Source: a phage. Taken from it: a stretch of DNA of 64,000 nt. Below are positions 1-62,292 of the stretch, piece after piece. The notes beneath the pieces were generated by a model. The model ran no database searches and was not told the origin of the DNA. It worked only from the letters and a program-made list of their open reading frames with translations. The translations under genes were made by a program, and so were the position numbers. The first letter of the stretch is position 1. Every line of letters begins with the position of its first letter. The stretch lies in sequence record NC_094493.1; one strand, given 5' to 3'.

Positions 1-1212
1 ATAAGCGATCTGCAGCAGAAGCGAATGCCTGACTGCAAGATACCTATGAAAATCAGCAATCAGGACGACATTAAGCGATACCTGATCAGTGCTGGTTGGC
101 TTCCGACAATGTGGAGAACTAAGGATGTAACTAAAGACAGCAAGAAGAAAGCTCTACCTGATGCAGATGTTGATGCACGAGTATATGCATACATGGACGA
201 GCTTTTAGAGTCAGAGTATTGTGACCTAATTATCAACTTCTGGAACAAAACTGATGCTAAGTTTCAGACAACAGTGCACAAGTTCCGAAGCTTTCCTAAC
301 TCCGAAAGGATTAAAAAGGAAGTATTCGGGAAAATACGTAGAAAAGCTAGGGCACTTATTACTTCTCCGCAACTGAAAGATACGTTTGGACACCTATGTC
401 CGAATCTTGAAAAATTGAACGGAGAGATGGCTAAGGATATCGTCTTGTGGTTATCCTTGCGAAACCGCAGATCGGTCCTTGATCCAATCAAGGAGGATAA
501 GGTTGATACTGGTCTTCTTAATCACCCACGCTTGAAGATTGACCATAAGCTTCCTGCTAAAAGCTCCGGATTAACAAACACTTCCAGACAGAAACACAGC
601 ATTTGTGCAAACATGCCTAAACCCTCTCCTAAAGTGGTTATGGGTAAGGAGATGCGTAGCTTGTGGGGTGTTCCTCCTGGATACTTTGAGATCGGTATTG
701 ACGGGTCCAACTTAGAGCAGCTTATCGGGGCTTGGGGTGCCTTTGAGTTCGACAACGGCTTGTATTATGATGTTGTAAGTAACGGGGACGCACACCAAAA
801 CAATGCTGAGGCATATACAAAAGTAGCAGGCAGAGAGGTGTCTCGTAACGACGGTAAACCTATCACGTATGGGGTTATGTACGGGGCACAAAAAGATAAA
901 GTTGCAGATATGCTGGACATCTCTCCAGAGTTGGGACAAAGGGTAATCGATGCACTCTGGGATGCCAACCCTGGTCTTAAGGGGCGCAAAGAGGATCTGG
1001 AGAAATTCTGGGAAGCAACAGGTAAGAAGTTTATCTACTCTTTTGATGGTCATGCTATCTGGACCCGATCTAAACACTCTTTACTTAATGCATACCAACA
1101 GAATGGTGGTGCATCGCTGTGTGACTTGGTTGGGATACTTATGCACCACCAAATGGTGAAGCGTGGGTGGTACGATGAAGGTGTTCGTCGTATTATTTAT
1201 TACCATAAATAA
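1..1212 (+). CDS. DNA polymerase, family A (Pol I/T7-like), C-terminal region; 5' end lies outside the window
   Basis: Frame is open from base 1. Motif A-like IDGSNLEQL and motif B-like RxxxxGKxITYGVMYG; segment after motif B aligns by eye with T7/Klenow up to just before motif C. No HDE motif before the stop. Confidence 0.65.
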   Translation: MSDLQQKRMPDCKIPMKISNQDDIKRYLISAGWLPTMWRTKDVTKDSKKKALPDADVDARVYAYMDELLESEYCDLIINFWNKTDAKFQTTVHKFRSFPNSERIKKEVFGKIRRKARALITSPQLKDTFGHLCPNLEKLNGEMAKDIVLWLSLRNRRSVLDPIKEDKVDTGLLNHPRLKIDHKLPAKSSGLTNTSRQKHSICANMPKPSPKVVMGKEMRSLWGVPPGYFEIGIDGSNLEQLIGAWGAFEFDNGLYYDVVSNGDAHQNNAEAYTKVAGREVSRNDGKPITYGVMYGAQKDKVADMLDISPELGQRVIDALWDANPGLKGRKEDLEKFWEATGKKFIYSFDGHAIWTRSKHSLLNAYQQNGGASLCDLVGILMHHQMVKRGWYDEGVRRIIYYHK

Positions 1213-1458
1213 CATTGTGGCTTCATAGAGTAATCTATGTCGAATAACCTCTTTAACTGCGGGAAGCCTAAACCTTATGGCAAGGTAATCCGCAACGAAG
1301 CGCTCAAAAGAGCGAACGCTCAGAGGCCATTCCGAAAGGAAGTAGACCAGCAAGTGCGGTCGAAATGGGAGGATTCCTGTGGTTGCTTATCATAGGAATA
1401 TGAGATGGTCCGATCCTACGTGAAAACGTATGGCTATGCACGTAATGGTGCGGGGTAG
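1213..1458 (+). other. Structured non-coding insert between the two polymerase ORFs; candidate group I intron
   Basis: In-frame stops separate two same-frame polymerase ORFs. Contains P-like TGCGGGAAG and Q-like AATCCGCAA elements in canonical order, plus several short hairpins with GAAA/GCAA loops. Confidence 0.3.
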
Positions 1459-5012: not shown

Positions 5013-6238
5013 TGAGCGTTATTCAACAATTCGCTAACCCAATGAATCCGCGTGAAACTGTTTTACTAGCTCACGGCATGATTAAACGTGTTAGCATCAA
5101 GCCTATTAAAGGTGCTGATCCTACAACAGGTATTAAAACCACTGTGTGGCAAGGTAAGAAAATTGAATCCAGCCACACCATCTCTTTACTGATTTCTGAA
5201 CTGGATTCCTCTGATAACCTGCTTCAAGGTGGTGAAGAAGTCTGGATCAGCATGGGTGATAAGCTGCTTAAACCAGGTCATCAAGACTCTGTCTCTGTTA
5301 AGATTGATGACAAGTGGGAAACCGTAACGCCAGGATGGATCGTAAATATCCCTTTGAAGGCAAACGAGCATAACGGTAAGACCTATTACAAGGGCTCACT
5401 GGCTAAGATGGTTAAGCTGGGTGCAGGAGAGGCTCCAGCAGCGACTCAGCAGCAAAAACAGCAACAAGGTGCACAATCACAAGGCCAGAAGCAGAAACCT
5501 CAGCAGAATGCCAATCAGGACGTTTTACGCATCTATGGTGATGTGACTCAGATTGTTGGCAACGTGGTTACTGTTAATGACCACAAGATTGGCGAAGGTG
5601 CTATGGTTGTAACTGATGAGCAGCTTAAAGACCTGGTGGTAGGTGGTCGTGTTGCAGCCATTGTTGACAAAGACACCGGAAACATTATCAGTGGTTTCAA
5701 GGCCTATCCCCCTAAGGCAGAGAACGGCACTCAAGGATCTGGTGGCAAGCGTAAATCCTCTTACGACCCTATCGGTGTGGAAACGGGGCATAGCATCAAT
5801 GCGTTGCAGATCATCCTGGATCGCGGGTTTAAGGTAGACGACCCACTGGGCGTGGCTAAAACACTGCACGTAGTCACCATTGAGCTTAAGAAAGAGTATG
5901 CTCAAGCCACCAACCGAACTGAAGATGAAGTAGGTGCCAGTGTCGGTAATGCGGTGTTGAACGCTTGTCGCCGTATTGACAAGAAAACGAAAGTTGATGA
6001 TTTTGCAGCGGCAATTACTGCAGAAGCAAAAGATGTCTTGACTAATCTGGCTGAACCGTTGTACGATTGGATCAAGAACGGTGCTGGGTCAACCGACCAT
6101 CAAGAACCTCAGGCTGCCAAACAGGAAGCAGCTCCACAGCAAAACACTGTAGACGCTCCTCCTGTAAATGATGCGGAAGATGACCCAATGGATCAGAATC
6201 CAGCACAGTACGCCTTTGATGATGACATCCCTTTTTAA
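5012..6238 (+). CDS. Hypothetical protein with Gln-rich linker and host-SSB-like acidic C-terminal tail (possible ssDNA-binding or SSB-mimic protein)
   Basis: 408 aa ORF; C-terminus ...YAFDDDIPF matches the conserved E. coli SSB C-terminal peptide; Q-rich low-complexity linker; hairpin plus T-run after the stop. Confidence 0.6.
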   Translation: MSVIQQFANPMNPRETVLLAHGMIKRVSIKPIKGADPTTGIKTTVWQGKKIESSHTISLLISELDSSDNLLQGGEEVWISMGDKLLKPGHQDSVSVKIDDKWETVTPGWIVNIPLKANEHNGKTYYKGSLAKMVKLGAGEAPAATQQQKQQQGAQSQGQKQKPQQNANQDVLRIYGDVTQIVGNVVTVNDHKIGEGAMVVTDEQLKDLVVGGRVAAIVDKDTGNIISGFKAYPPKAENGTQGSGGKRKSSYDPIGVETGHSINALQIILDRGFKVDDPLGVAKTLHVVTIELKKEYAQATNRTEDEVGASVGNAVLNACRRIDKKTKVDDFAAAITAEAKDVLTNLAEPLYDWIKNGAGSTDHQEPQAAKQEAAPQQNTVDAPPVNDAEDDPMDQNPAQYAFDDDIPF

Positions 6239-20382: not shown

Positions 20383-20802
20383 ATGAACATTAAATCTGAT
20401 AATCCGGCATATAGCTTTGATAACGCTTTTTGTCACGGTCCGGCGGCGAAAGGATTCGAAATCGATGGTAAACTAGTTATTGTTAATGTTGACGGGGAAG
20501 AGGTTGCAGTATATCCGGTGGCAGACGTTAAAAGCCGTCTACAATGCCGCATGGATGTTACCGCCTATCAGCTTGATCCGGTCCGGGTAGTTGCCCTGGT
20601 CCTGGAAGAAGAAATTAAAGCAATGCACCACAGCAACAAGTTTATTGGTGACGCTCAAGATAATATGCAGGTATGCCGCTATAAAGTTAATGAAGTGCTT
20701 AAAGAGTACGGCTATAAGGATTTAATGATCAAGCGTGATGAAAAATTCCGCTACCGTAACGACCTGGCAAATCGGATTTTTGAAATATACGAATCATTAT
20801 AA
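20383..20802 (+). CDS. hypothetical protein
   Basis: Promoter TTGACA ~20305 with -10 TATATT; RBS agaggtaaaaacacc ATG; terminator follows. Confidence 0.55.
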   Translation: MNIKSDNPAYSFDNAFCHGPAAKGFEIDGKLVIVNVDGEEVAVYPVADVKSRLQCRMDVTAYQLDPVRVVALVLEEEIKAMHHSNKFIGDAQDNMQVCRYKVNEVLKEYGYKDLMIKRDEKFRYRNDLANRIFEIYESL

Positions 20803-20820
20803 TTTTTTAACTGAATTATC

Positions 20821-20846
20821 AAGGGGCTTAGGCCCCTTTCTTTTTG
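20821..20846 (+). terminator. Intrinsic terminator closing the + strand block
   Basis: Hairpin aggggcttaggcccct followed by TTTCTTTTT. Confidence 0.65.
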
Positions 20847-20849
20847 TCT

Positions 20850-23290
20850 GCTCTTCCCCCTACCATAAACGGCCCTACCTGGCAAGTGGAATAATTGACG
20901 AGCCATCAATCCCACACACTGTACAAATATACATGTAAAATAGCTATTGCATAACCTTTCATTGTGTGGTAGCAGGGCTATTTTTACCCGTTTTCCCTTC
21001 CAAAATTGCACGTAATGCCGCTATTGCACAAATTTTAACCTGATGCACATCTCCAATATCTTGTCAACAACTAAAAATCTTTATAAGTCATACACTTACA
21101 CAACATAGAAAGCGTGTCCTACGCGAAAAATCGAGTATAACTATAGCCGCCAGATCTCAGAATTCACGTACGCACGCCATTCTATAGCCTGCAAAGTATT
21201 TATTCCAACCACAGAATAACGGAATAGTCAATACCTGCATAAAATAATTATTCGTGTAAACTGCATAACATAAATCAGCTCAGGTGTCAACATTTTTCGT
21301 AAACAGTCCGAAATTATCACGATGAGTTATCATAAACAGAGAAATCTTTAGTCGTCTAATGTTTACTGTACATTACTATACTGACTGGAATCATTAGATG
21401 ACTAAGAGAAAGATAAGAAATAATTAATAATGTGATTATTTTACCTGTAACAATAAGGCAACTATGCAAACGAATGGCATGGCGCGACGGAGTCGCGACA
21501 TAATATAAAAGCAGTAACCATCACCCCCGTGATAGTTTGTCTGCAATCTATTAATCAGATCATAGTTGCCTTGTATTTAGTTAATCATGACATAACAAGC
21601 AAGGCAACTATAGATCTTCTAATAGTTGCCCTGCTTTTATATTATGTCATAGAAACACCCGAAGGGGTGACCAAAGGTCACCTGGCATAGCCAGCGAAAG
21701 ATTATTAACTTGCTAATCGTTATCATGCAAACGAATGGCATGGCTTATAATTTTTGAGCAAATAGTCTATACGTGAACAGTGAGGCATGCAATAGTAACA
21801 ATTGTTATTATATCCAGTGTTTAGTTTGCCCAGTGTGTCACTATTATGTCATATTATGTCACAGTATGTCAGACAAGTTTTTCTCCTCTTTGTCAAGTGC
21901 TGCATGAAAAATTTACAAGCTGGTATGGTAGCATTTTTGCGGTCCTGTTTACATTCAGTAATGTATGTATAATCCTTGTTGTGTGGGCGTTTAGACGTCT
22001 AGACGGTTGGAAGTCCACAGGTCAATATCTAATCTATCGGCTGCTAACTATATCCCACACAAATAGTAAGAAATATGATTGTTATATGCGTAAACAGTAA
22101 CTCATGTTATCAATCCCTGTATGTATCGCCAGTGGTGCGCATAATGGGTATTATGTTAAATTGCCCGTAATGATAATGGTTCTCACAATGATATGTATTC
22201 TCATTCCCCCACACAAAATAGATTGCAAATGTTGTGCCACTATGTGAACGGCCTCACCTATTAATTTGCCTCACTGCCTCGATATTTGAGAATTGTTATA
22301 AGAATGAGAATGATTCCCATTTCGTCCGCCTGGCAGCACTCCTGTAGGACAAGCACAAAATCGTGGCATAGCTGGACCTGTTCAGATATTTCTGGCTGGC
22401 TCTTCAGGTCTGTGTGGGAAAAGCCAACCCCCTCCGGCGGCGGGGAGGGTGTCAATTAAAAAATTTATGGGGTATATGAAGCGCTCTTCAGGTAAGGCAT
22501 GTACTATGGGATGAAACCCTCTTCAGGCAATGATATTTGTGGGTGTGATATTTGCTGGAAAGCCAGATATGACGGGACTCCCGGCGGGGCAGGGGTAGTA
22601 CAGACAGGGAAAATATGGGGATGTAGTTGGGTGAATTGATCGGGCAGGTAGAGTACGGAATATGTTACAAGTATGTTAAATATGGAGGGTGAATATCTGC
22701 AGGATTTGTGTGTAAAATCAAAGACTTAAGTAGTGTTGTGGTATTTTCTATAAATAATTCAAGTTTAATAGGTAATATTTGTCTCTATCCACTTTGTGTG
22801 GTAAACAAATTCAAATGAGATTGGTTTACAAGTGTATACATAATATGCAAATTAAAGATACAAGAAACCCCCCTCCCCCTTCGGCTACCATTCACCTTTT
22901 CCTCTGACTGGTACTTAAACACTTATTCAGACTCTTCAGGTTATCACCCATACACCATATGGCAGTGACTGGTGTCCTCCGGCCCCTCTTTCGTCACCCG
23001 TCCGCTTCGCCATGCTAATGCCATAGCCAAATGTTCGGTTGTTCACCCTGTTCACTCAGGTGTATCTCCATACCCCTTCAAACCGAAGAGAACAGAAAAC
23101 CCGAATTACTCGGTAAAAGAAAAGAGAAGAACTTAATTTTATCAGGATAGGCAAGAATGTCAAGGCATGACTGCTCACTAAACAAGCAAACAGTCATGTG
23201 TGGGAGGTAAGTGATTGTGGTGGTAGGAAATTTAGTTGAAAGATGTGTTATAGGTGCTTCCAGCACTTTAGCCTGGCAGCTAATTGTGTG
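20850..23290. other. ~2.4 kb non-coding, repeat-rich convergence region between the + and - gene blocks
   Basis: No convincing ORF. Short direct repeats (AACGAATGGCATGGC x2; GGCAACTAT/ATAGTTGCC in both orientations; TATGTCA x3; CTCTTCAGG x3); GC hairpins around 22430 and 22580. Confidence 0.5.
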
Positions 23291-23572
23291 TCAGTCCAGC
23301 GGTTCATCCTCTACTTCACTGAAATCAATGTTCATGGTCTCTTCCCAACCATCGATCTCAGCACAAGAGTGGAGTTCTTTAGGGTTTACTCCCAAAGCCT
23401 CAGCAACAGAGTCTATATTTAACACCTCTGGCAGGTATGATTCATCGAATTCAAGGTAAATCAGGCCACGAGTGTTGTCAACTCCACCAAATATTTCTAT
23501 CTTCATGAAATCTCCTCTGGAAATGAGAGTGTGAACAGGGTTTATACGTTCCAATGCACTGGAATTATGCAC
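23291..23572 (-). CDS. hypothetical acidic protein
   Basis: ORF; true start may be the internal ATG at 23506 (MKIEIFGG...), matching N-termini of neighbouring paralogues. Confidence 0.45.
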   Translation of the reverse strand: MHNSSALERINPVHTLISRGDFMKIEIFGGVDNTRGLIYLEFDESYLPEVLNIDSVAEALGVNPKELHSCAEIDGWEETMNIDFSEVEDEPLD

Positions 23573-59230: not shown

Positions 59231-60162
59231 TGCATATAGTTCTCGTTGTGGAAATAGTAATCAAGTATCTCACGGCGTTCCTGCTCCAGGAGGCAGTTCC
59301 ACACATCCTCTGTGTAATTGCTACGAATGAAGTTTACCATGCCGTAAAACTCTTCGTCAACACGTTTAAAGATATCATCATCCCAAATCTTCCAAGCTTT
59401 ACCCCTCATTACGGCCTTCCGTGCCAGATAGTATGGAGACTTGATCTTCAGCTGCAGATCATAAGGGTAGTAAGGCTTACGAATCATATACCCTTCACCT
59501 CTTGTTTCTGCAGCTAATTCTTTTGCATAGCTGAACGGAATTTCACGCACAGTGTGAGGACGTTTTGCACCAAGGTATTTGGCAATCCCATCTAAAGCTG
59601 CTTCTGGTAGCATTATTCCAGAATCATTATATCTGCAACCTATCAAATATGCGCCATGATCTTCCTGAACAATATGCGGATCTGAAGGGTGACAAATTTC
59701 AAACATGAATGTCATGTTTTCATTGCCCATAACCTTCTTGATAAGATCTAAATTACCACATTGCTCTTGGATGGTTTCCTTTGCAAGGTTACAATATGGA
59801 GAATCAAGAGACCCGGTTGTTGAGAACAATAGTTCACCTTTATGAGATGATACCACACCGAGGAATCCGTTCTTTTTCTCTACCGCAGTAACAAGTTTAC
59901 TGTCCGGTAGGTTGGTGGAGTTTTCTCCTAAGTTGAATACTTTTGTGAAAGGCCATGCCACAACATTCCCCTCATTGCCAACAACAATACCTCGGCACTC
60001 CAGTAAACGCGGAGACAAATGCCACAGATTGTTGTAGAATACTTTTCTGGCATATTTATAGATCTTTAATCCAAGATCTGGATAATACCGACTGGTTACA
60101 AGACCTTTGTCTACTAGGTCATCTGCATTAAAATACTTCATCATACGTTCCTCATTTGTCAT
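59227..60162 (-). CDS. RNA ligase, T4 Rnl1-like
   Basis: LLECRGIVV...KVFNLGEN...EKKNGFL...LFSTTGS aligns with T4 Rnl1 ALECRGIMF...KFFNLNEN...TKEDGSL...LFKSKGS; motif I reads KKNG rather than KxDG. Confidence 0.6.
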   Translation of the reverse strand: MTNEERMMKYFNADDLVDKGLVTSRYYPDLGLKIYKYARKVFYNNLWHLSPRLLECRGIVVGNEGNVVAWPFTKVFNLGENSTNLPDSKLVTAVEKKNGFLGVVSSHKGELLFSTTGSLDSPYCNLAKETIQEQCGNLDLIKKVMGNENMTFMFEICHPSDPHIVQEDHGAYLIGCRYNDSGIMLPEAALDGIAKYLGAKRPHTVREIPFSYAKELAAETRGEGYMIRKPYYPYDLQLKIKSPYYLARKAVMRGKAWKIWDDDIFKRVDEEFYGMVNFIRSNYTEDVWNCLLEQERREILDYYFHNENYMQ

Positions 60163-60262
60163 TTTGTCAGTCTATCCTGCCACACAAATAACCTAGTGTC
60201 AACACTTGAAATTAACAAAACAGTTAGGTATACTATCATTAAAATTAAAACGGAGGGTTGCT

Positions 60263-60673
60263 ATGTCTAAAATGCTATATATCGTGCGTGGTCTGCCAGG
60301 GTCTGGCAAATCAACACTGGCAAATGCGCTATCTTTAGAAGGTCTGTATCCACATTTTGAGAACGACATGTTCTGGTATGACGATGACGGCAATTACAAC
60401 TGGGATGCAAGTAAAGTAACACTCGCAGCAAAATGGTGCAAAGATAACGTAGAAGATATGATGCGTATGGGATACGACCGTATCGTGGTAAGTAATACGT
60501 TTACAAAAGAAAAACATGTGCAGGAATATGTTGACATGGCAATCAGTCACGGGTATAGTTATACCGTGATCGTGGTTGAAAACCGCCACGGTAATAAAAG
60601 CATTCATGATGTTCCAGACAAGGTTGTGGATCGTATGGAACGCCAGCTTAAAAACTGCATTAAACTTAAATGA
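60263..60673 (+). CDS. P-loop polynucleotide kinase-like protein
   Basis: Walker A GLPGSGKST resembles T4 Pnk kinase N-terminus; RBS ggaggg; divergent from the RNA ligase gene. Confidence 0.5.
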   Translation: MSKMLYIVRGLPGSGKSTLANALSLEGLYPHFENDMFWYDDDGNYNWDASKVTLAAKWCKDNVEDMMRMGYDRIVVSNTFTKEKHVQEYVDMAISHGYSYTVIVVENRHGNKSIHDVPDKVVDRMERQLKNCIKLK

Positions 60674-60680
60674 GGAATGT

Positions 60681-61235
60681 ATGAAATACTTTGTAACAAG
60701 CGACACACACTTTCTCCACCAGCGGGTCATGGAGTTTGATTCATGTCAAAAACACAGATCTCAGTATGATCACAATCTTGACAGTATGAATGCGGGAATC
60801 ATCACCAAGTGGAACTCTGTTGTGTCACCTGCAGACACTGTGTTTCACTTGGGAGATATTGCGTGCACTAATGATAAGAATATCAACAAATTGCTCCCAG
60901 ATGTTCTAAATATGTTGAACGGACATATTATTCTTGTTCGTGGTAACCATGACACAAGGACGACTGTCAGAATTATGAAAGAGTTCGGTCATGAGGTTGT
61001 AGATTATTACGAGCTTCGCCACAACAAGAATTTGATCTGTATGAGCCATTACCAGTTTGCAAAGTGGAACAGAAAGCCTCACGGATCAGTCCAACTGTTC
61101 GGTCATGCTCACGGAACCACACAGCAGTTGTTTGGCAGGCAGTTTGATGTCGGTTGGGATGTGTGGGGGAGACTCTTACCATTAGAAGAGGCATACCGTA
61201 TTGCAATGAGTCTTGCTATTGACAGCGGGGAGTAA
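60681..61235 (+). CDS. Calcineurin-like metallophosphoesterase
   Basis: SDTHF, HLGDI, GNHD, GHAHG metallophosphatase motifs; RBS aaatgagga. Confidence 0.65.
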   Translation: MKYFVTSDTHFLHQRVMEFDSCQKHRSQYDHNLDSMNAGIITKWNSVVSPADTVFHLGDIACTNDKNINKLLPDVLNMLNGHIILVRGNHDTRTTVRIMKEFGHEVVDYYELRHNKNLICMSHYQFAKWNRKPHGSVQLFGHAHGTTQQLFGRQFDVGWDVWGRLLPLEEAYRIAMSLAIDSGE

Positions 61236-61282
61236 TCCCTGCTATTTTAAAGAAAATTGCCACACAAGGAGAATCAGGAGAT

Positions 61283-61633
61283 ATGAAAGATGGGGATAAG
61301 CTGCTATATCTTAAAGTCCCCCTTGAAATACTGTCTATGTCAAAAGTTTTGAATGACACAACTGGGGAGGTTGTTGTTCTTGACTTATATGACAAGATCG
61401 TATACTGCTACCTGCACAACTGGTATAAGCTTGGAGGAAATTCACGCTTCACACCCAGCACAAGGAAAATTGCAGCAGATGTTGGGATAAAGAAAACAAA
61501 AGCAGCAGCGTGCGTTAAAACTTTAGAATGTGCAGGAGTGGTTGAAATATCCACACAAGGGAGAGGTAAAAGATGTACATTTTCCAAAGTTTTGCCACCA
61601 GAAGAGGTTATTCGAATGTCAACAACTGGTTAG
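61283..61633 (+). CDS. HTH DNA-binding protein (putative replication initiator or regulator)
   Basis: Helix-turn-helix-like STRKIAADVGIKKTKAAACVKTLECAGVVE; immediately upstream of the palindrome array. Confidence 0.5.
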   Translation: MKDGDKLLYLKVPLEILSMSKVLNDTTGEVVVLDLYDKIVYCYLHNWYKLGGNSRFTPSTRKIAADVGIKKTKAAACVKTLECAGVVEISTQGRGKRCTFSKVLPPEEVIRMSTTG

Positions 61634-61706
61634 ACCAGTAAAAACTTAAATATCTGTACTATAAGGATTCGTATGTTTTATGTTCGCTCTGGAACAGAGG
61701 TCAGTA

Positions 61707-61790
61707 ACTGTCCGTGATACGGACACTACTGTCCGTCACGCGGACACATCTGCCCGTAATACGGACACTAACTGTCCGTGATACGGACAC
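61707..61790. repeat. Four tandem 21-bp imperfect palindromes (iteron/operator array)
   Basis: ACTGTCCGTGATACGGACACT repeated four times head-to-tail with minor variation; each is a GTCCGT-N3-ACGGAC palindrome. Confidence 0.75.
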
Positions 61791-61920
61791 ATAAAGAATA
61801 TAACTAAAATAACTAAATAATAAAAATAAAAGATCTAGTACTTATGGTACTAAGTACATATACTTAACTTATGTAGAATATACTAGATCCTAAGTACCAT
61901 GTTTTAAAATTATTACTTAC
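61791..61920. other. AT-rich tract adjacent to the palindrome array (possible DNA unwinding element)
   Basis: About 80 percent A+T over ~130 bp, with palindromes AGTACTTA/TAAGTAC. Confidence 0.45.
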
Positions 61921-62160
61921 TATAGGTAGTGTCGGCCCTTCATTGGCACTCGCCTACGAGGGGCGAGATGCCGGGCCTCCTTGGTGCACACAATAACAGA
62001 AGTGCATACATGCAGGTCTGTTAACATGTGTGGGAGCGAAGCGATAGCGCAGGCCAAAGGCCGAGCACTGATGTGGACCACCGACGAAAGCTTGCCAGCG
62101 CCGTAAGGAGTCGGTTGAGAGTCTCCCGCGCGAGCTTGGATGAAGTTTATGTGTGGAAAC
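61921..62160. ncRNA. GC-rich structured island (candidate ncRNA)
   Basis: Sharp rise in G+C with many short complementary segments; the only ORF is a - strand R/P/C-rich artefact. Confidence 0.25.
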
Positions 62161-62292
62161 TGACAAGAAGGCCCCTAAATCGCTCCACAGCTATATAAAC
62201 TATACCAGGTAATGCAATCGCACCAGTTTGATAGAAAAGCTCGTTACAAAGTGATACAGTGAGTTTTTCTATAACTTGAAGAGGAGGCGGCT

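What the first reader, a model, noticed from the sequence alone, without database searches (positions are those of the whole stretch)
20850..23290. 2.4 kb gene-free, repeat-rich region where the + and - transcription blocks converge
This is the longest non-coding stretch in the window. It holds several families of short direct and inverted repeats (AACGAATGGCATGGC, GGCAACTAT/ATAGTTGCC, TATGTCA, CTCTTCAGG) and GC hairpins, with intrinsic terminators on its flanks. Candidate roles are a replication origin, a packaging or DNA-injection control site, or a cluster of small RNAs.
Basis: seen in the sequence. Interest (0 to 1): 0.55.

Follow-up and report, generated by a model that had tools for sequence, protein, structure and literature searches.

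The report
Phage genome ends and terminal repeat
The 2.5 kb gene-free stretch is where the linear DNA of this rV5-like coliphage begins and ends, holding a 459-bp terminal repeat, its two cut sites and flanking signal sequences, a feature already reported for close relatives.

Summary
Window 20803-23290 is non-coding, is far the longest ORF-free stretch in the window, is unusually rich in repeats, and lies between converging + and - gene blocks.

The window is a Vequintavirus (rV5-like myovirus). The rV5 paper drew this stretch as an unexplained 'non-coding' box. It holds the physical ends of the virion DNA.

- The direct terminal repeat (DTR) is window 21872-22330, 459 bp.
- It maps base-for-base onto the repeat annotated in phage Gotham (459 bp) and reported for HdK5 and EdH4 (458 bp).
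- At least nine public records begin or end exactly at 21872 or 22330.
- Both cut-site sequences are conserved in a sister clade and in Klebsiella phage KPP-1, whose PhageTerm-determined ends align to the same columns.

Their likely role as packaging signals is my inference:
- 10-bp-phased TATGTCA units abut one cut.
- Arrays next to that cut vary in copy number between relatives.
- Repeat families change together between clades.

Two blocks are more conserved than the neighbouring genes. One is a roughly 150-nt multi-helix structure kept by compensatory changes in three clades. Its function is unknown.

A replication origin is not supported. Small RNAs remain possible.

Verdict: a known kind of feature, already published for this genus; the sub-elements are uncharacterised.

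The parts
20803..23290 (.). Whole non-coding terminal region. In a circular or concatemer map it is the junction between the two ends of the linear genome.
   Evidence: ORF and codon-position tests. Conserved at 92-97% in 121 phage records. Drawn as a 'non-coding' box in the rV5 paper, PMC3606486.
20821..20838 (+). Intrinsic terminator closing the + strand gene block (AAGGGGCTTAGGCCCCTT followed by a T-run).
   Evidence: Annotated as a terminator in phages Murica and Alma.
21041..21171 (.). Two sequence islands conserved in the sister clade: TGATGCACAT..TGTCAACAACTAAAAATCTTTATAA, and GAAAAATCGAGTATAACTATAG..TTCACGTA. Role unknown; possibly a promoter-like or protein-binding site.
   Evidence: nhmmer alignment to L005.
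21464..21483 (+). Copy 1 of the perfect 20-nt direct repeat ATGCAAACGAATGGCATGGC. The two copies bracket block A.
   Evidence: The sister clade keeps a pair at the same places with a changed sequence, ATGCAACGATAACATGGCGC x2.
21497..21648 (-). Block A, an ultra-conserved multi-helix structure. It has an 18-bp outer stem (21497-21514 / 21631-21648), a hairpin at 21516-21537 with a GGGG loop, and a long hairpin built from the GGCAACTAT/ATAGTTGCC repeats (about 21557-21617).
   Evidence: 98-100% identity across Vequintavirus. MFE is -69.3 kcal/mol on the - strand and -62.6 on the + strand, with z about -11. The same architecture with different helix sequences occurs in the L005 clade and in KPP-1.
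21653..21700 (.). 48-nt cassette of three small hairpins, variably present. On the - strand its first hairpin looks like a terminator.
   Evidence: Absent in Gotham, Alma and others. Found at other positions and in several copies in L024, L026, L030 and L038.
21725..21744 (+). Copy 2 of the 20-nt direct repeat.
21750..21871 (.). Indel-rich arrays of short repeats whose copy number differs between phages. GTRAACA units have a period of about 20 bp. Three TATGTCA units lie at 21845, 21855 and 21865 (10-bp period) and run right up to the cut.
   Evidence: Alignment. In the sister clade all three cut-adjacent units read TATGCCT instead.
21867..21897 (.). Cut site R with its conserved 26-mer: TGTCA|GACAAGTTTTTCTCCTCTTTGTCAAG. 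The cut lies between 21871 and 21872.
   Evidence: Gotham record end maps here. Records Pr121LW, YN3 and ECP2309 end here. The 26-mer has at most 1 mismatch in all relatives. It aligns with the KPP-1 and L005-clade ends.
21872..22330 (.). Direct terminal repeat (DTR), 459 bp. It is present once here and at both ends of the virion DNA.
   Evidence: Gotham repeat_region 1-459 and 136567-137025. HdK5 and EdH4 have 458 bp. Records with the DTR exactly at a record end are listed.
21982..22019 (.). Palindromic element inside the DTR (TAGACGTCTA / GTCTAGAC). The sister clade has a different palindrome, ACTAGTGCACTAGT, at the same place.
   Evidence: This part of the DTR is 98-100% conserved.
22281..22335 (.). 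Cut site L with conserved approach sequence: GATATTTGAGAAT...CATTTCGTCCGCC|TGGCA. The cut lies between 22330 and 22331.
   Evidence: Gotham record start maps here. bov11CS3, bov10K2, bov22_2 and HdK5 start here. Aligns with KPP-1 GTCCGTC|TAGCA and L005 GCCTGCC|TAATA.
22400..22584 (+). Three CTCTTCAGG units (22400, 22484, 22519), a G+C-rich hairpin at 22430-22449, and a conserved island at 22511-22584. A fourth CTCTTCAGG lies at 22932.
   Evidence: The units and the island are kept in the sister clade.
22850..23165 (-). Block B, 97-100% conserved. On the - strand it carries a promoter: TTGACA at 23163-23158 and an extended -10, TGATAAAAT, at 23144-23136. About 15 nt after the expected start there is a hairpin (23113-23101) and a U-run. 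It also holds GTTCAC x2 and a C-run box.
   Evidence: The extended -10 is kept as TGCTATAAT or TGATATAAT, and the hairpin is kept by compensatory changes, in the sister clade.

Best explanation
This stretch is the terminal region of a linear phage genome that has short, fixed direct terminal repeats. The virion DNA starts at window 21872 and ends at 22330 after one full turn of the map. The 459 bp between those points is therefore present at both ends.

Inference by analogy with T7 and T3: in the cell, genomes join head to tail through this repeat, leaving one copy per junction. The terminase recognises the junction and cuts at TGTCA|GACAAG (21871/21872) and GTCCGCC|TGGCA (22330/22331). The repeat is duplicated so that each packaged genome carries two copies.

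The roughly 1 kb of non-coding DNA on each side holds the signals. These are 10-bp-phased TATGTCA units and variable arrays touching one cut, CTCTTCAGG units beyond the other cut, and two highly conserved blocks. The region also holds the terminator that stops the + gene block from reading into the ends.

Shown: the position of the ends, the conservation of both cut sites across genera, the non-coding nature, the conservation pattern and the covariation.

Inferred: that the repeat arrays are terminase (small-subunit) binding sites, the T7-like duplication step, and any role of blocks A and B.
For: - The window is a Vequintavirus. The region matches 121 phage records at 92-97% identity and is mostly unannotated in them.
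[quoted passage not shown] They are annotated at 1-459 and 136567-137025.
- blastn places Gotham base 1 at window 22330 and its last base at window 21872.
- Records from several laboratories start or end exactly at these two points: Pr121LW, YN3, ECP2309, bov10K2, bov11CS3, bov22_2, HdK5 and EcoIv14a_Aya.
- Klebsiella phage KPP-1 (genus Mydovirus) has a 514-bp DTR found by coverage and PhageTerm (PMC9862379). It lies in the same kind of gene-poor gap between converging blocks. Both its ends align to the same alignment columns as the window's ends, with conserved motifs.
- The 26-mer and 24-mer at the two cuts are conserved with at most 1-2 mismatches in all relatives fetched.
- The region is as conserved as, or more conserved than, the flanking genes, except for an indel-rich array zone touching cut R.
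- Repeat families are kept as families while their sequence changes between clades.
Against: - No reads from this particular phage were available. Its ends are inferred by homology (93-97% identity in the DTR), not measured.
- Some papers on relatives report circular permutation or headful packaging: the bov phages by PhageTerm, BpE1AUH, and phiTE and PVP-SE1. The bov records nevertheless start exactly at the DTR.
- Phage CM1 carries a perfect 523-bp tandem duplication equal to window 21800-22330. Its junction is at cut L, but its other limit is 72 bp beyond cut R. This could mean a different right-hand cut in phages with this array type.
- No terminase binding has been shown for any of the repeats.
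Confidence: 0.85

Rival explanations
1. The region, or part of it such as block A or the AT-rich stretch at 21200-21450, is an origin of DNA replication. Repeats would act as initiator binding sites and the AT-rich DNA as the unwinding element.
For: - GC content is the lowest in the window, 36% for 21001-22000 against about 43% overall.
- There are several families of short repeats, including four GGCAACTAT sites in both orientations and a 20-mer pair bracketing a structured block.
- From my own knowledge: T7 has secondary origins near its ends.
- Block A's single-strand structure could be a priming signal.
Against: - There is no DnaA box within one mismatch in the region, against 34 in the rest of the window.
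- Cumulative GC skew peaks here, which is terminus-like. Its minimum is near 59-60 kb, where the blocks diverge.
- Transcription converges on the region rather than leaving it.
- The rV5 authors' skew analysis found only changes tied to transcription direction.
- Nothing here needs an origin to be explained once the ends are placed.
Confidence: 0.1
2. The conserved blocks are genes for small non-coding RNAs. One would be a structured RNA of about 150 nt from block A on the - strand. One or more would come from the block B promoter on the - strand. This could hold alongside the packaging role of the rest of the region.
For: - Block B has a near-consensus sigma-70 promoter with an extended -10 that is kept in the sister clade. 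It is followed by a hairpin kept through compensatory changes.
- Block A folds with z about -11. Its helices are kept with different sequences in three clades, and its loops accept insertions.
- In four of four cases tested, the strand equivalent to the window's - strand folds better, by 4-13 kcal/mol. That is expected if G-U pairs matter.
- The wobble pairs in hairpins 21516-21537 and 23101-23113 are valid only on the - strand (seen directly in the sequence).
Against: - There is no Rfam match even at E up to 1.
- No promoter conserved across phages lies upstream of block A. The TATAAT seen in Gotham-type phages is replaced by the hairpin cassette in this window.
- Perfect inverted repeats in double-stranded DNA covary equally well if they bind a dimeric protein or form a cruciform.
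- The comparison rests on only three clades.
- No transcriptome for this genus was found.
Confidence: 0.25
3. The region controls stepwise DNA injection, like the injection stop signal in the T5 terminal repeat.
For: The region lies at the genome ends and is rich in repeats and hairpins.
Against: From my own knowledge, T5-type two-step transfer uses a roughly 10-kb repeat carrying pre-early genes. Here the repeat is 459 bp with no ORF under selection. No gene near either end points inward from the end.
Confidence: 0.04

Closest known systems
T7/T3 concatemer junction (short direct terminal repeat, fixed ends)
   Same: - A short exact repeat at both ends of a linear genome: 160 bp in T7, 459 bp here.
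- Two different, specific cut sequences flank a single repeat copy in the junction.
- Arrays of short repeats lie immediately beside the repeat, like T7's SRL and SRR arrays.
- The surrounding DNA is non-coding.
- KPP-1 was classed as T7-type by PhageTerm.

The T7 facts are from my own knowledge (Dunn and Studier 1983; Fujisawa and Morita 1997).
   Different: - The host phage is a 137-kb myovirus, not a podovirus.
- About 2.5 kb is non-coding, far more than in T7.
- Both gene blocks point towards the ends, whereas T7 genes all read away from the left end.
- There is no sequence similarity to T7.
- The terminase lies outside the window and was not compared.
Annotated terminal repeats of Vequintavirus Gotham, HdK5 and EdH4, and of Mydovirus KPP-1
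   Same: Within the genus it is the same element at 93-97% identity and the same coordinates. In KPP-1 it is the same architecture with the same cut-site motifs.
   Different: Those reports give only a repeat length. None describes the cut-site consensus, the repeat arrays or the conserved blocks. The rV5 reference paper leaves the region unexplained.
SPP1 pac and lambda cosB (small-terminase binding repeats beside the cut)
   Same: Short, helically phased repeat boxes lie on either side of the cleavage position. Here they are TATGTCA at a 10-bp spacing touching cut R and CTCTTCAGG units beyond cut L. They drift in sequence together, as expected for sites that co-evolve with a binding protein.
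   Different: SPP1 packages by the headful and lambda makes cohesive ends; neither has fixed direct repeats. Binding is not shown here. The SPP1 and lambda facts are from my own knowledge.
phi29 pRNA and single-strand initiation (ssi) signals such as the phage G4 complementary-strand origin
   Same: Block A is a structured element of about 150-200 nt encoded a few hundred bases from a genome end. It has several helices kept by covariation, and one strand is favoured.
   Different: There is no sequence or Rfam similarity, no evidence that it is transcribed or single-stranded, and no link to the packaging motor. This is a resemblance recalled from memory, not a test.

Membership tests
Short direct terminal repeat (T7-type) genome ends | The same sequence is present at both ends of the virion DNA. 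| tested here: met
   Met in homologous records. Gotham, HdK5 and YN3 each carry the window's 21872-22330 sequence at both record ends. The window itself is a collapsed map with one copy.
Short direct terminal repeat (T7-type) genome ends | Fixed, unique end positions, seen as read-start pile-ups and twofold coverage over the repeat. | not testable with these tools
   No reads were available. Reported for Gotham and KPP-1. Supported indirectly by at least nine records ending to the base at 21872 or 22330.
Short direct terminal repeat (T7-type) genome ends | Specific cut-site sequences conserved among relatives. | tested here: met
   The 26-mer and 24-mer at the cuts have at most 1-2 mismatches in all relatives. 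Ends determined independently in two genera fall in the same alignment columns.
Short direct terminal repeat (T7-type) genome ends | The large terminase subunit groups with those of short-DTR phages. | not tested
   The terminase gene is not in the window.
Bacterial-type replication origin (DnaA boxes, AT-rich unwinding element, skew minimum) | DnaA boxes. | tested here: not met
   None within one mismatch in 20803-23290; 34 elsewhere in the window.
Bacterial-type replication origin (DnaA boxes, AT-rich unwinding element, skew minimum) | Minimum of cumulative GC skew. | tested here: not met
   The region is at the maximum. The minimum is near 59-60 kb.
Bacterial-type replication origin (DnaA boxes, AT-rich unwinding element, skew minimum) | Iterons next to an AT-rich stretch. 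| tested here: inconclusive
   Repeat families and a 36% GC stretch exist, but the packaging signals explain them equally well.
Known RNA families (Rfam 15) and tRNA/tmRNA | A match to a covariance model or to the tRNA fold. | tested here: not met
   No match in the region at the gathering threshold or at E up to 1. No tRNA in the window.
phiTE pseudo-ToxI antitoxin-mimic locus | Tandem 36-nt ToxI-like repeats at the syntenic locus. | tested here: not met
   The phiTE locus lies between tRNA genes upstream of the terminase gene, not at the convergence point. No tandem 36-nt units occur here. The 36-bp 'repeat_region' in phage navn is an unrelated short repeat inside the DTR.
T5-type terminal repeat with first-step transfer and injection stop signal | A long repeat carrying pre-early genes. 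| tested here: not met
   The repeat is 459 bp and contains no ORF under coding selection.
Protein-coding genes (small ORFs annotated in some records) | The reading frame is kept in relatives, with a third-position excess of substitutions. | tested here: not met
   Codon-position counts are flat and frames are often broken for all 26 internal ORFs. Flanking genes show a clear signal.

The most novel reading that the evidence does not exclude
Block A (21497-21648) is a functional single-stranded structured element shared by at least three clades of Vequintavirinae. It would be either a new non-coding RNA or a single-stranded DNA signal, lying a few hundred bases from the terminal repeat. It would take part in processing, replicating or packaging the genome ends. 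Loose analogies are phi29 pRNA and ssi priming signals.
Probability: 0.15. Interest if true: 0.6.

Novelty: already known. Interest (0 to 1): 0.33.

Why it matters
It explains the 'non-coding' box that the rV5 reference paper left open. It also shows that most of the 121 public genomes of this group are deposited as arbitrarily opened circles with the true ends buried inside.

Knowing the exact ends and the conserved cut-site motifs lets annotators place the termini of Vequintavirinae genomes without read data. That matters for engineering and for quality control of therapeutic phages.

The conserved blocks and co-evolving repeat arrays give a concrete set of candidate terminase recognition sites to test. 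How short-DTR packaging works in a large myovirus is essentially unstudied.

Tried and rejected
- **phiTE pseudo-ToxI lead.** An rV5-like phage with a known ncRNA at about 106.7 kb looked promising. The locus is not syntenic, and there are no 36-nt tandem units here.
- **Rfam and tRNA.** Rfam at the gathering threshold and at E up to 1, and a tRNA scan, found nothing in the region.
- **Small ORFs.** ORFs annotated in PMBT16, Murica, APCEc02 ('structural protein'), A51.2 and others are rejected by the codon-position and frame test.
- **Distant DNA similarity.** Distant blastn found no phage beyond the 121 Vequintavirus records. An nhmmer profile found the IMG/VR sister clade (L005) but gave no significant global match to KPP-1. 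KPP-1 was compared by motif and local alignment instead.
- **Pattern search of metagenome contigs.** It gave four more sister-clade loci and five chance matches (L033, L035-L037, L040), which I discarded.
- **Phage I29.** Its 546-bp duplication comes with a 120-bp snap-back palindrome and is not bounded by the ends. I treat it as an assembly artefact.
- **Conserved TTGACA inside the 26-mer at cut R.** I examined it as a -35 element. No usable -10 lies at 16-18 nt in any of the three clades, so I do not call it a promoter (seen directly in the sequence).
- **Literature.** Two searches for a Vequintavirus transcriptome found none.
Full report
**What the window is.** The region 20850-23290 matches 121 phage records at 92-97% identity, nearly all of them Escherichia phages of the genus Vequintavirus (rV5-like myoviruses). 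In most records nothing is annotated under it. The rV5 genome paper shows a grey box labelled 'non-coding' that 'contained no ORFs' and gives it no function. Its authors expected bidirectional terminators between genes 163 and 164 and could not locate an origin from skew (PMC3606486).

**Checking the observation.**
- The last + strand gene stops at 20802 and the last - strand gene at 23291, leaving 2,488 bp. Nowhere else in the window does the coding strand of a complete block leave more than 279 nt uncovered.
- I aligned the region and 1.5 kb of each flank with 16 relatives. For every ORF of 30 aa or more I counted variable sites by codon position.
- The flanking genes give [11,6,60], [7,4,27] and [17,10,47]. 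All 26 ORFs inside the region give flat counts, and most are broken in relatives. The tiny ORFs some records annotate there are not genes.
The 20-nt perfect direct repeat and the 18-nt perfect inverted repeat exceed the shuffle means of 10.9 and 12.0 nt. They also exceed every other 2.5-kb chunk of the window but one.
- A good terminator closes the + block at 20821-20838. The - side has only a weak hairpin 178 nt past the stop.

**What it is.**
- A genome announcement reports that Vequintavirus Gotham has 459-bp terminal repeats and one specific packaging start (PMC7471380). Its record annotates the repeat at 1-459 and 136567-137025.
- blastn maps Gotham base 1 to window 22330 and its last base to window 21872, so the repeat is window 21872-22330, exactly 459 bp.
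- Korf et al. independently report 458-bp terminal redundancies for HdK5 and EdH4 (PMC6563267).
- Searching the 459 bp alone shows records from several laboratories that begin or end exactly at these points: bov10K2, bov22_2, bov11CS3, HdK5, YN3, Gotham, EcoIv14a_Aya, Pr121LW and ECP2309. Three of them carry the repeat at both ends.
- The non-coding region is therefore the two non-coding ends of a linear genome, joined through one copy of the repeat in a circularised map.

**Conservation beyond the genus.**
- Klebsiella phage KPP-1 (Mydovirus) has a 514-bp repeat found by coverage and PhageTerm (PMC9862379). It lies in the same kind of gene-poor gap between converging blocks.
- KPP-1 has no blastn-level similarity to the window. 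Even so, its two reported ends align to the same columns as the window's ends.
- A sister clade from IMG/VR and metagenomes (L005, L024, L026, L030, L034, L038, L041) has the same motifs, with an implied repeat of about 670 bp.

| End | Window | KPP-1 | Sister clade (L005) |
|---|---|---|---|
| Cut R | TGTCA\|GACAAG...CTTTGTCAAG | TGCTA\|AACACA...CCTTGTCAAG | TGCCT\|AACAAA...TTTTGTCAAC |
| Cut L | GTCCGCC\|TGGCA | GTCCGTC\|TAGCA | GCCTGCC\|TAATA |

- Within Vequintavirus, the 26-mer and 24-mer at the cuts have at most 1-2 mismatches.

**Anatomy of the arms.**
- The region as a whole is as conserved as the neighbouring genes, or more so. Against the more distant relative L006 it is clearly more conserved.
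- The exception is 21650-21871, an indel-rich zone touching cut R. It is built from short units whose copy number differs between phages: GTRAACA at a period of about 20 bp, and TRTGTCA at 10 bp, three of which run up to the cut in this window.
- In the sister clade all three cut-adjacent units read TATGCCT. The 20-mer pair reads ATGCAACGATAACATGGCGC at both sites. CTCTTCAGG is kept unchanged.
- Repeat families that drift together are what binding sites for a co-evolving protein look like. I infer, but have not shown, that they are terminase recognition sites. Comparable cases are the arrays beside the T7 repeat, the SPP1 pac boxes and lambda cosB (my own knowledge).

**Block A (21497-21648).**
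- It is 98-100% conserved and folds into an 18-bp outer stem enclosing two hairpins, with z about -11 on either strand.
- The sister clade has the same architecture with different helix sequences. Ten of 31 consensus pairs changed on both sides and stayed paired.
- KPP-1 has an equivalent at a similar distance from its repeat.
- Loops accept insertions of 45-90 nt while the stems are kept.
- In all four cases tested, the strand equal to the window's - strand folds better.
- This points to a functional structure. Inverted DNA repeats covary in the same way if they bind a dimeric protein, only three clades are compared, and no conserved promoter precedes the block. I cannot say whether it acts as RNA or DNA.

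**Block B (22850-23165).**
- It carries a near-consensus promoter on the - strand with an extended -10 that is kept in the sister clade.
- The promoter is followed almost at once by a hairpin kept by compensatory changes and a U-run.
- What it transcribes is unknown.

**Rivals.**
- An origin is not supported. There are no DnaA boxes, the region is at a skew maximum rather than a minimum, and transcription converges on it.
- T5-style injection control does not fit a 459-bp gene-free repeat.
- Small RNAs are possible alongside the packaging role but are unproven. There is no Rfam match and I found no transcriptome for the genus.

**Caveats.**
- The ends of this particular phage are inferred by homology.
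- Some papers on relatives report permuted genomes.
- Phage CM1 carries a perfect 523-bp tandem duplication equal to window 21800-22330. Its junction sits exactly at cut L but reaches 72 bp beyond cut R. I cannot explain this. It may be an assembly product that kept both repeat copies, which would imply a different right-hand cut in phages with this array type.

**Verdict.** This is a real and well-observed feature with an ordinary explanation: the genome ends and direct terminal repeat, already published for the genus. The cut-site consensus across genera, the co-evolving arrays and the two conserved blocks are undescribed details, not a new kind of system.

Noticed in passing
window 1197-1432 (+): A group I intron (Rfam RF00028, 64.7 bits) lies at the end of an ORF (25-1212) with family A DNA polymerase similarity. 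The polymerase gene appears to be split by the intron.
   Followed up: partly
window 20383-20802 (+): The 139-aa gene next to the non-coding region is missing in Gotham, PMBT16, Alma and APCEc02. It is 91-94% identical at the protein level in two much more distant IMG/VR phages (L005, L007) whose surrounding DNA has diverged. It looks like a mobile accessory gene. It has no Pfam match.
   Followed up: partly
window 21653-21700; L024 10052, 11535, 12487, 12535; L030 5771, 6907; L026 254; L038 3667: A cassette of about 45 nt made of three small hairpins (CACCCGAAGGGGTG / GACCAAAGGTC / CTGGCATAGCCAG) is present or absent between close relatives. It sits at different places, including inside loops of block A. 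It occurs in up to four copies in sister-clade terminal regions, with compensatory changes in its hairpins. It behaves like a miniature mobile element.
   Followed up: partly
L003 (Shigella phage CM1) 2958-4003; L029 (phage I29) 1788-2927: CM1 has a perfect 523-bp tandem duplication equal to window 21800-22330, with its junction exactly at cut L. I29 has a 546-bp duplication with a 120-bp snap-back palindrome, which is probably an assembly artefact.
   Followed up: partly
whole window, e.g. 15046 (-), 19610 (-), and 8 sites in 20803-23290: TGTGTGG/CCACACA occurs 34 times in 64 kb, against about 8 expected. Eight are in the non-coding region, against 1.3 expected there. Upstream of some + strand genes it appears as hairpin-CCCCACACAAAA-RBS. 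In the region and in the sister clade it often follows CTCTTCAGG. It may be a phage-specific regulatory motif; compare the rV5 late motif TggTAaAAtA.
   Followed up: partly
window about 59713-62200: This is the only other chunk of the window with a long exact direct repeat (22 nt). It coincides with the point where the - and + blocks diverge and with the minimum of cumulative GC skew. It is a better candidate for an origin or early promoter region than the finding.
   Followed up: no
phage records MG065644-MG065682: Nineteen records named 'Campylobacter phage' with host Campylobacter jejuni are 94-97% identical to this coliphage region. They look like mislabelled or contaminating Vequintavirus genomes.
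   Followed up: no
L030 (OLOT01000016.1) about 5665-5760: A G+C-rich insertion of about 90 nt sits in the loop of the block A hairpin that corresponds to window 21516-21537. The stem is left intact.
   Followed up: no
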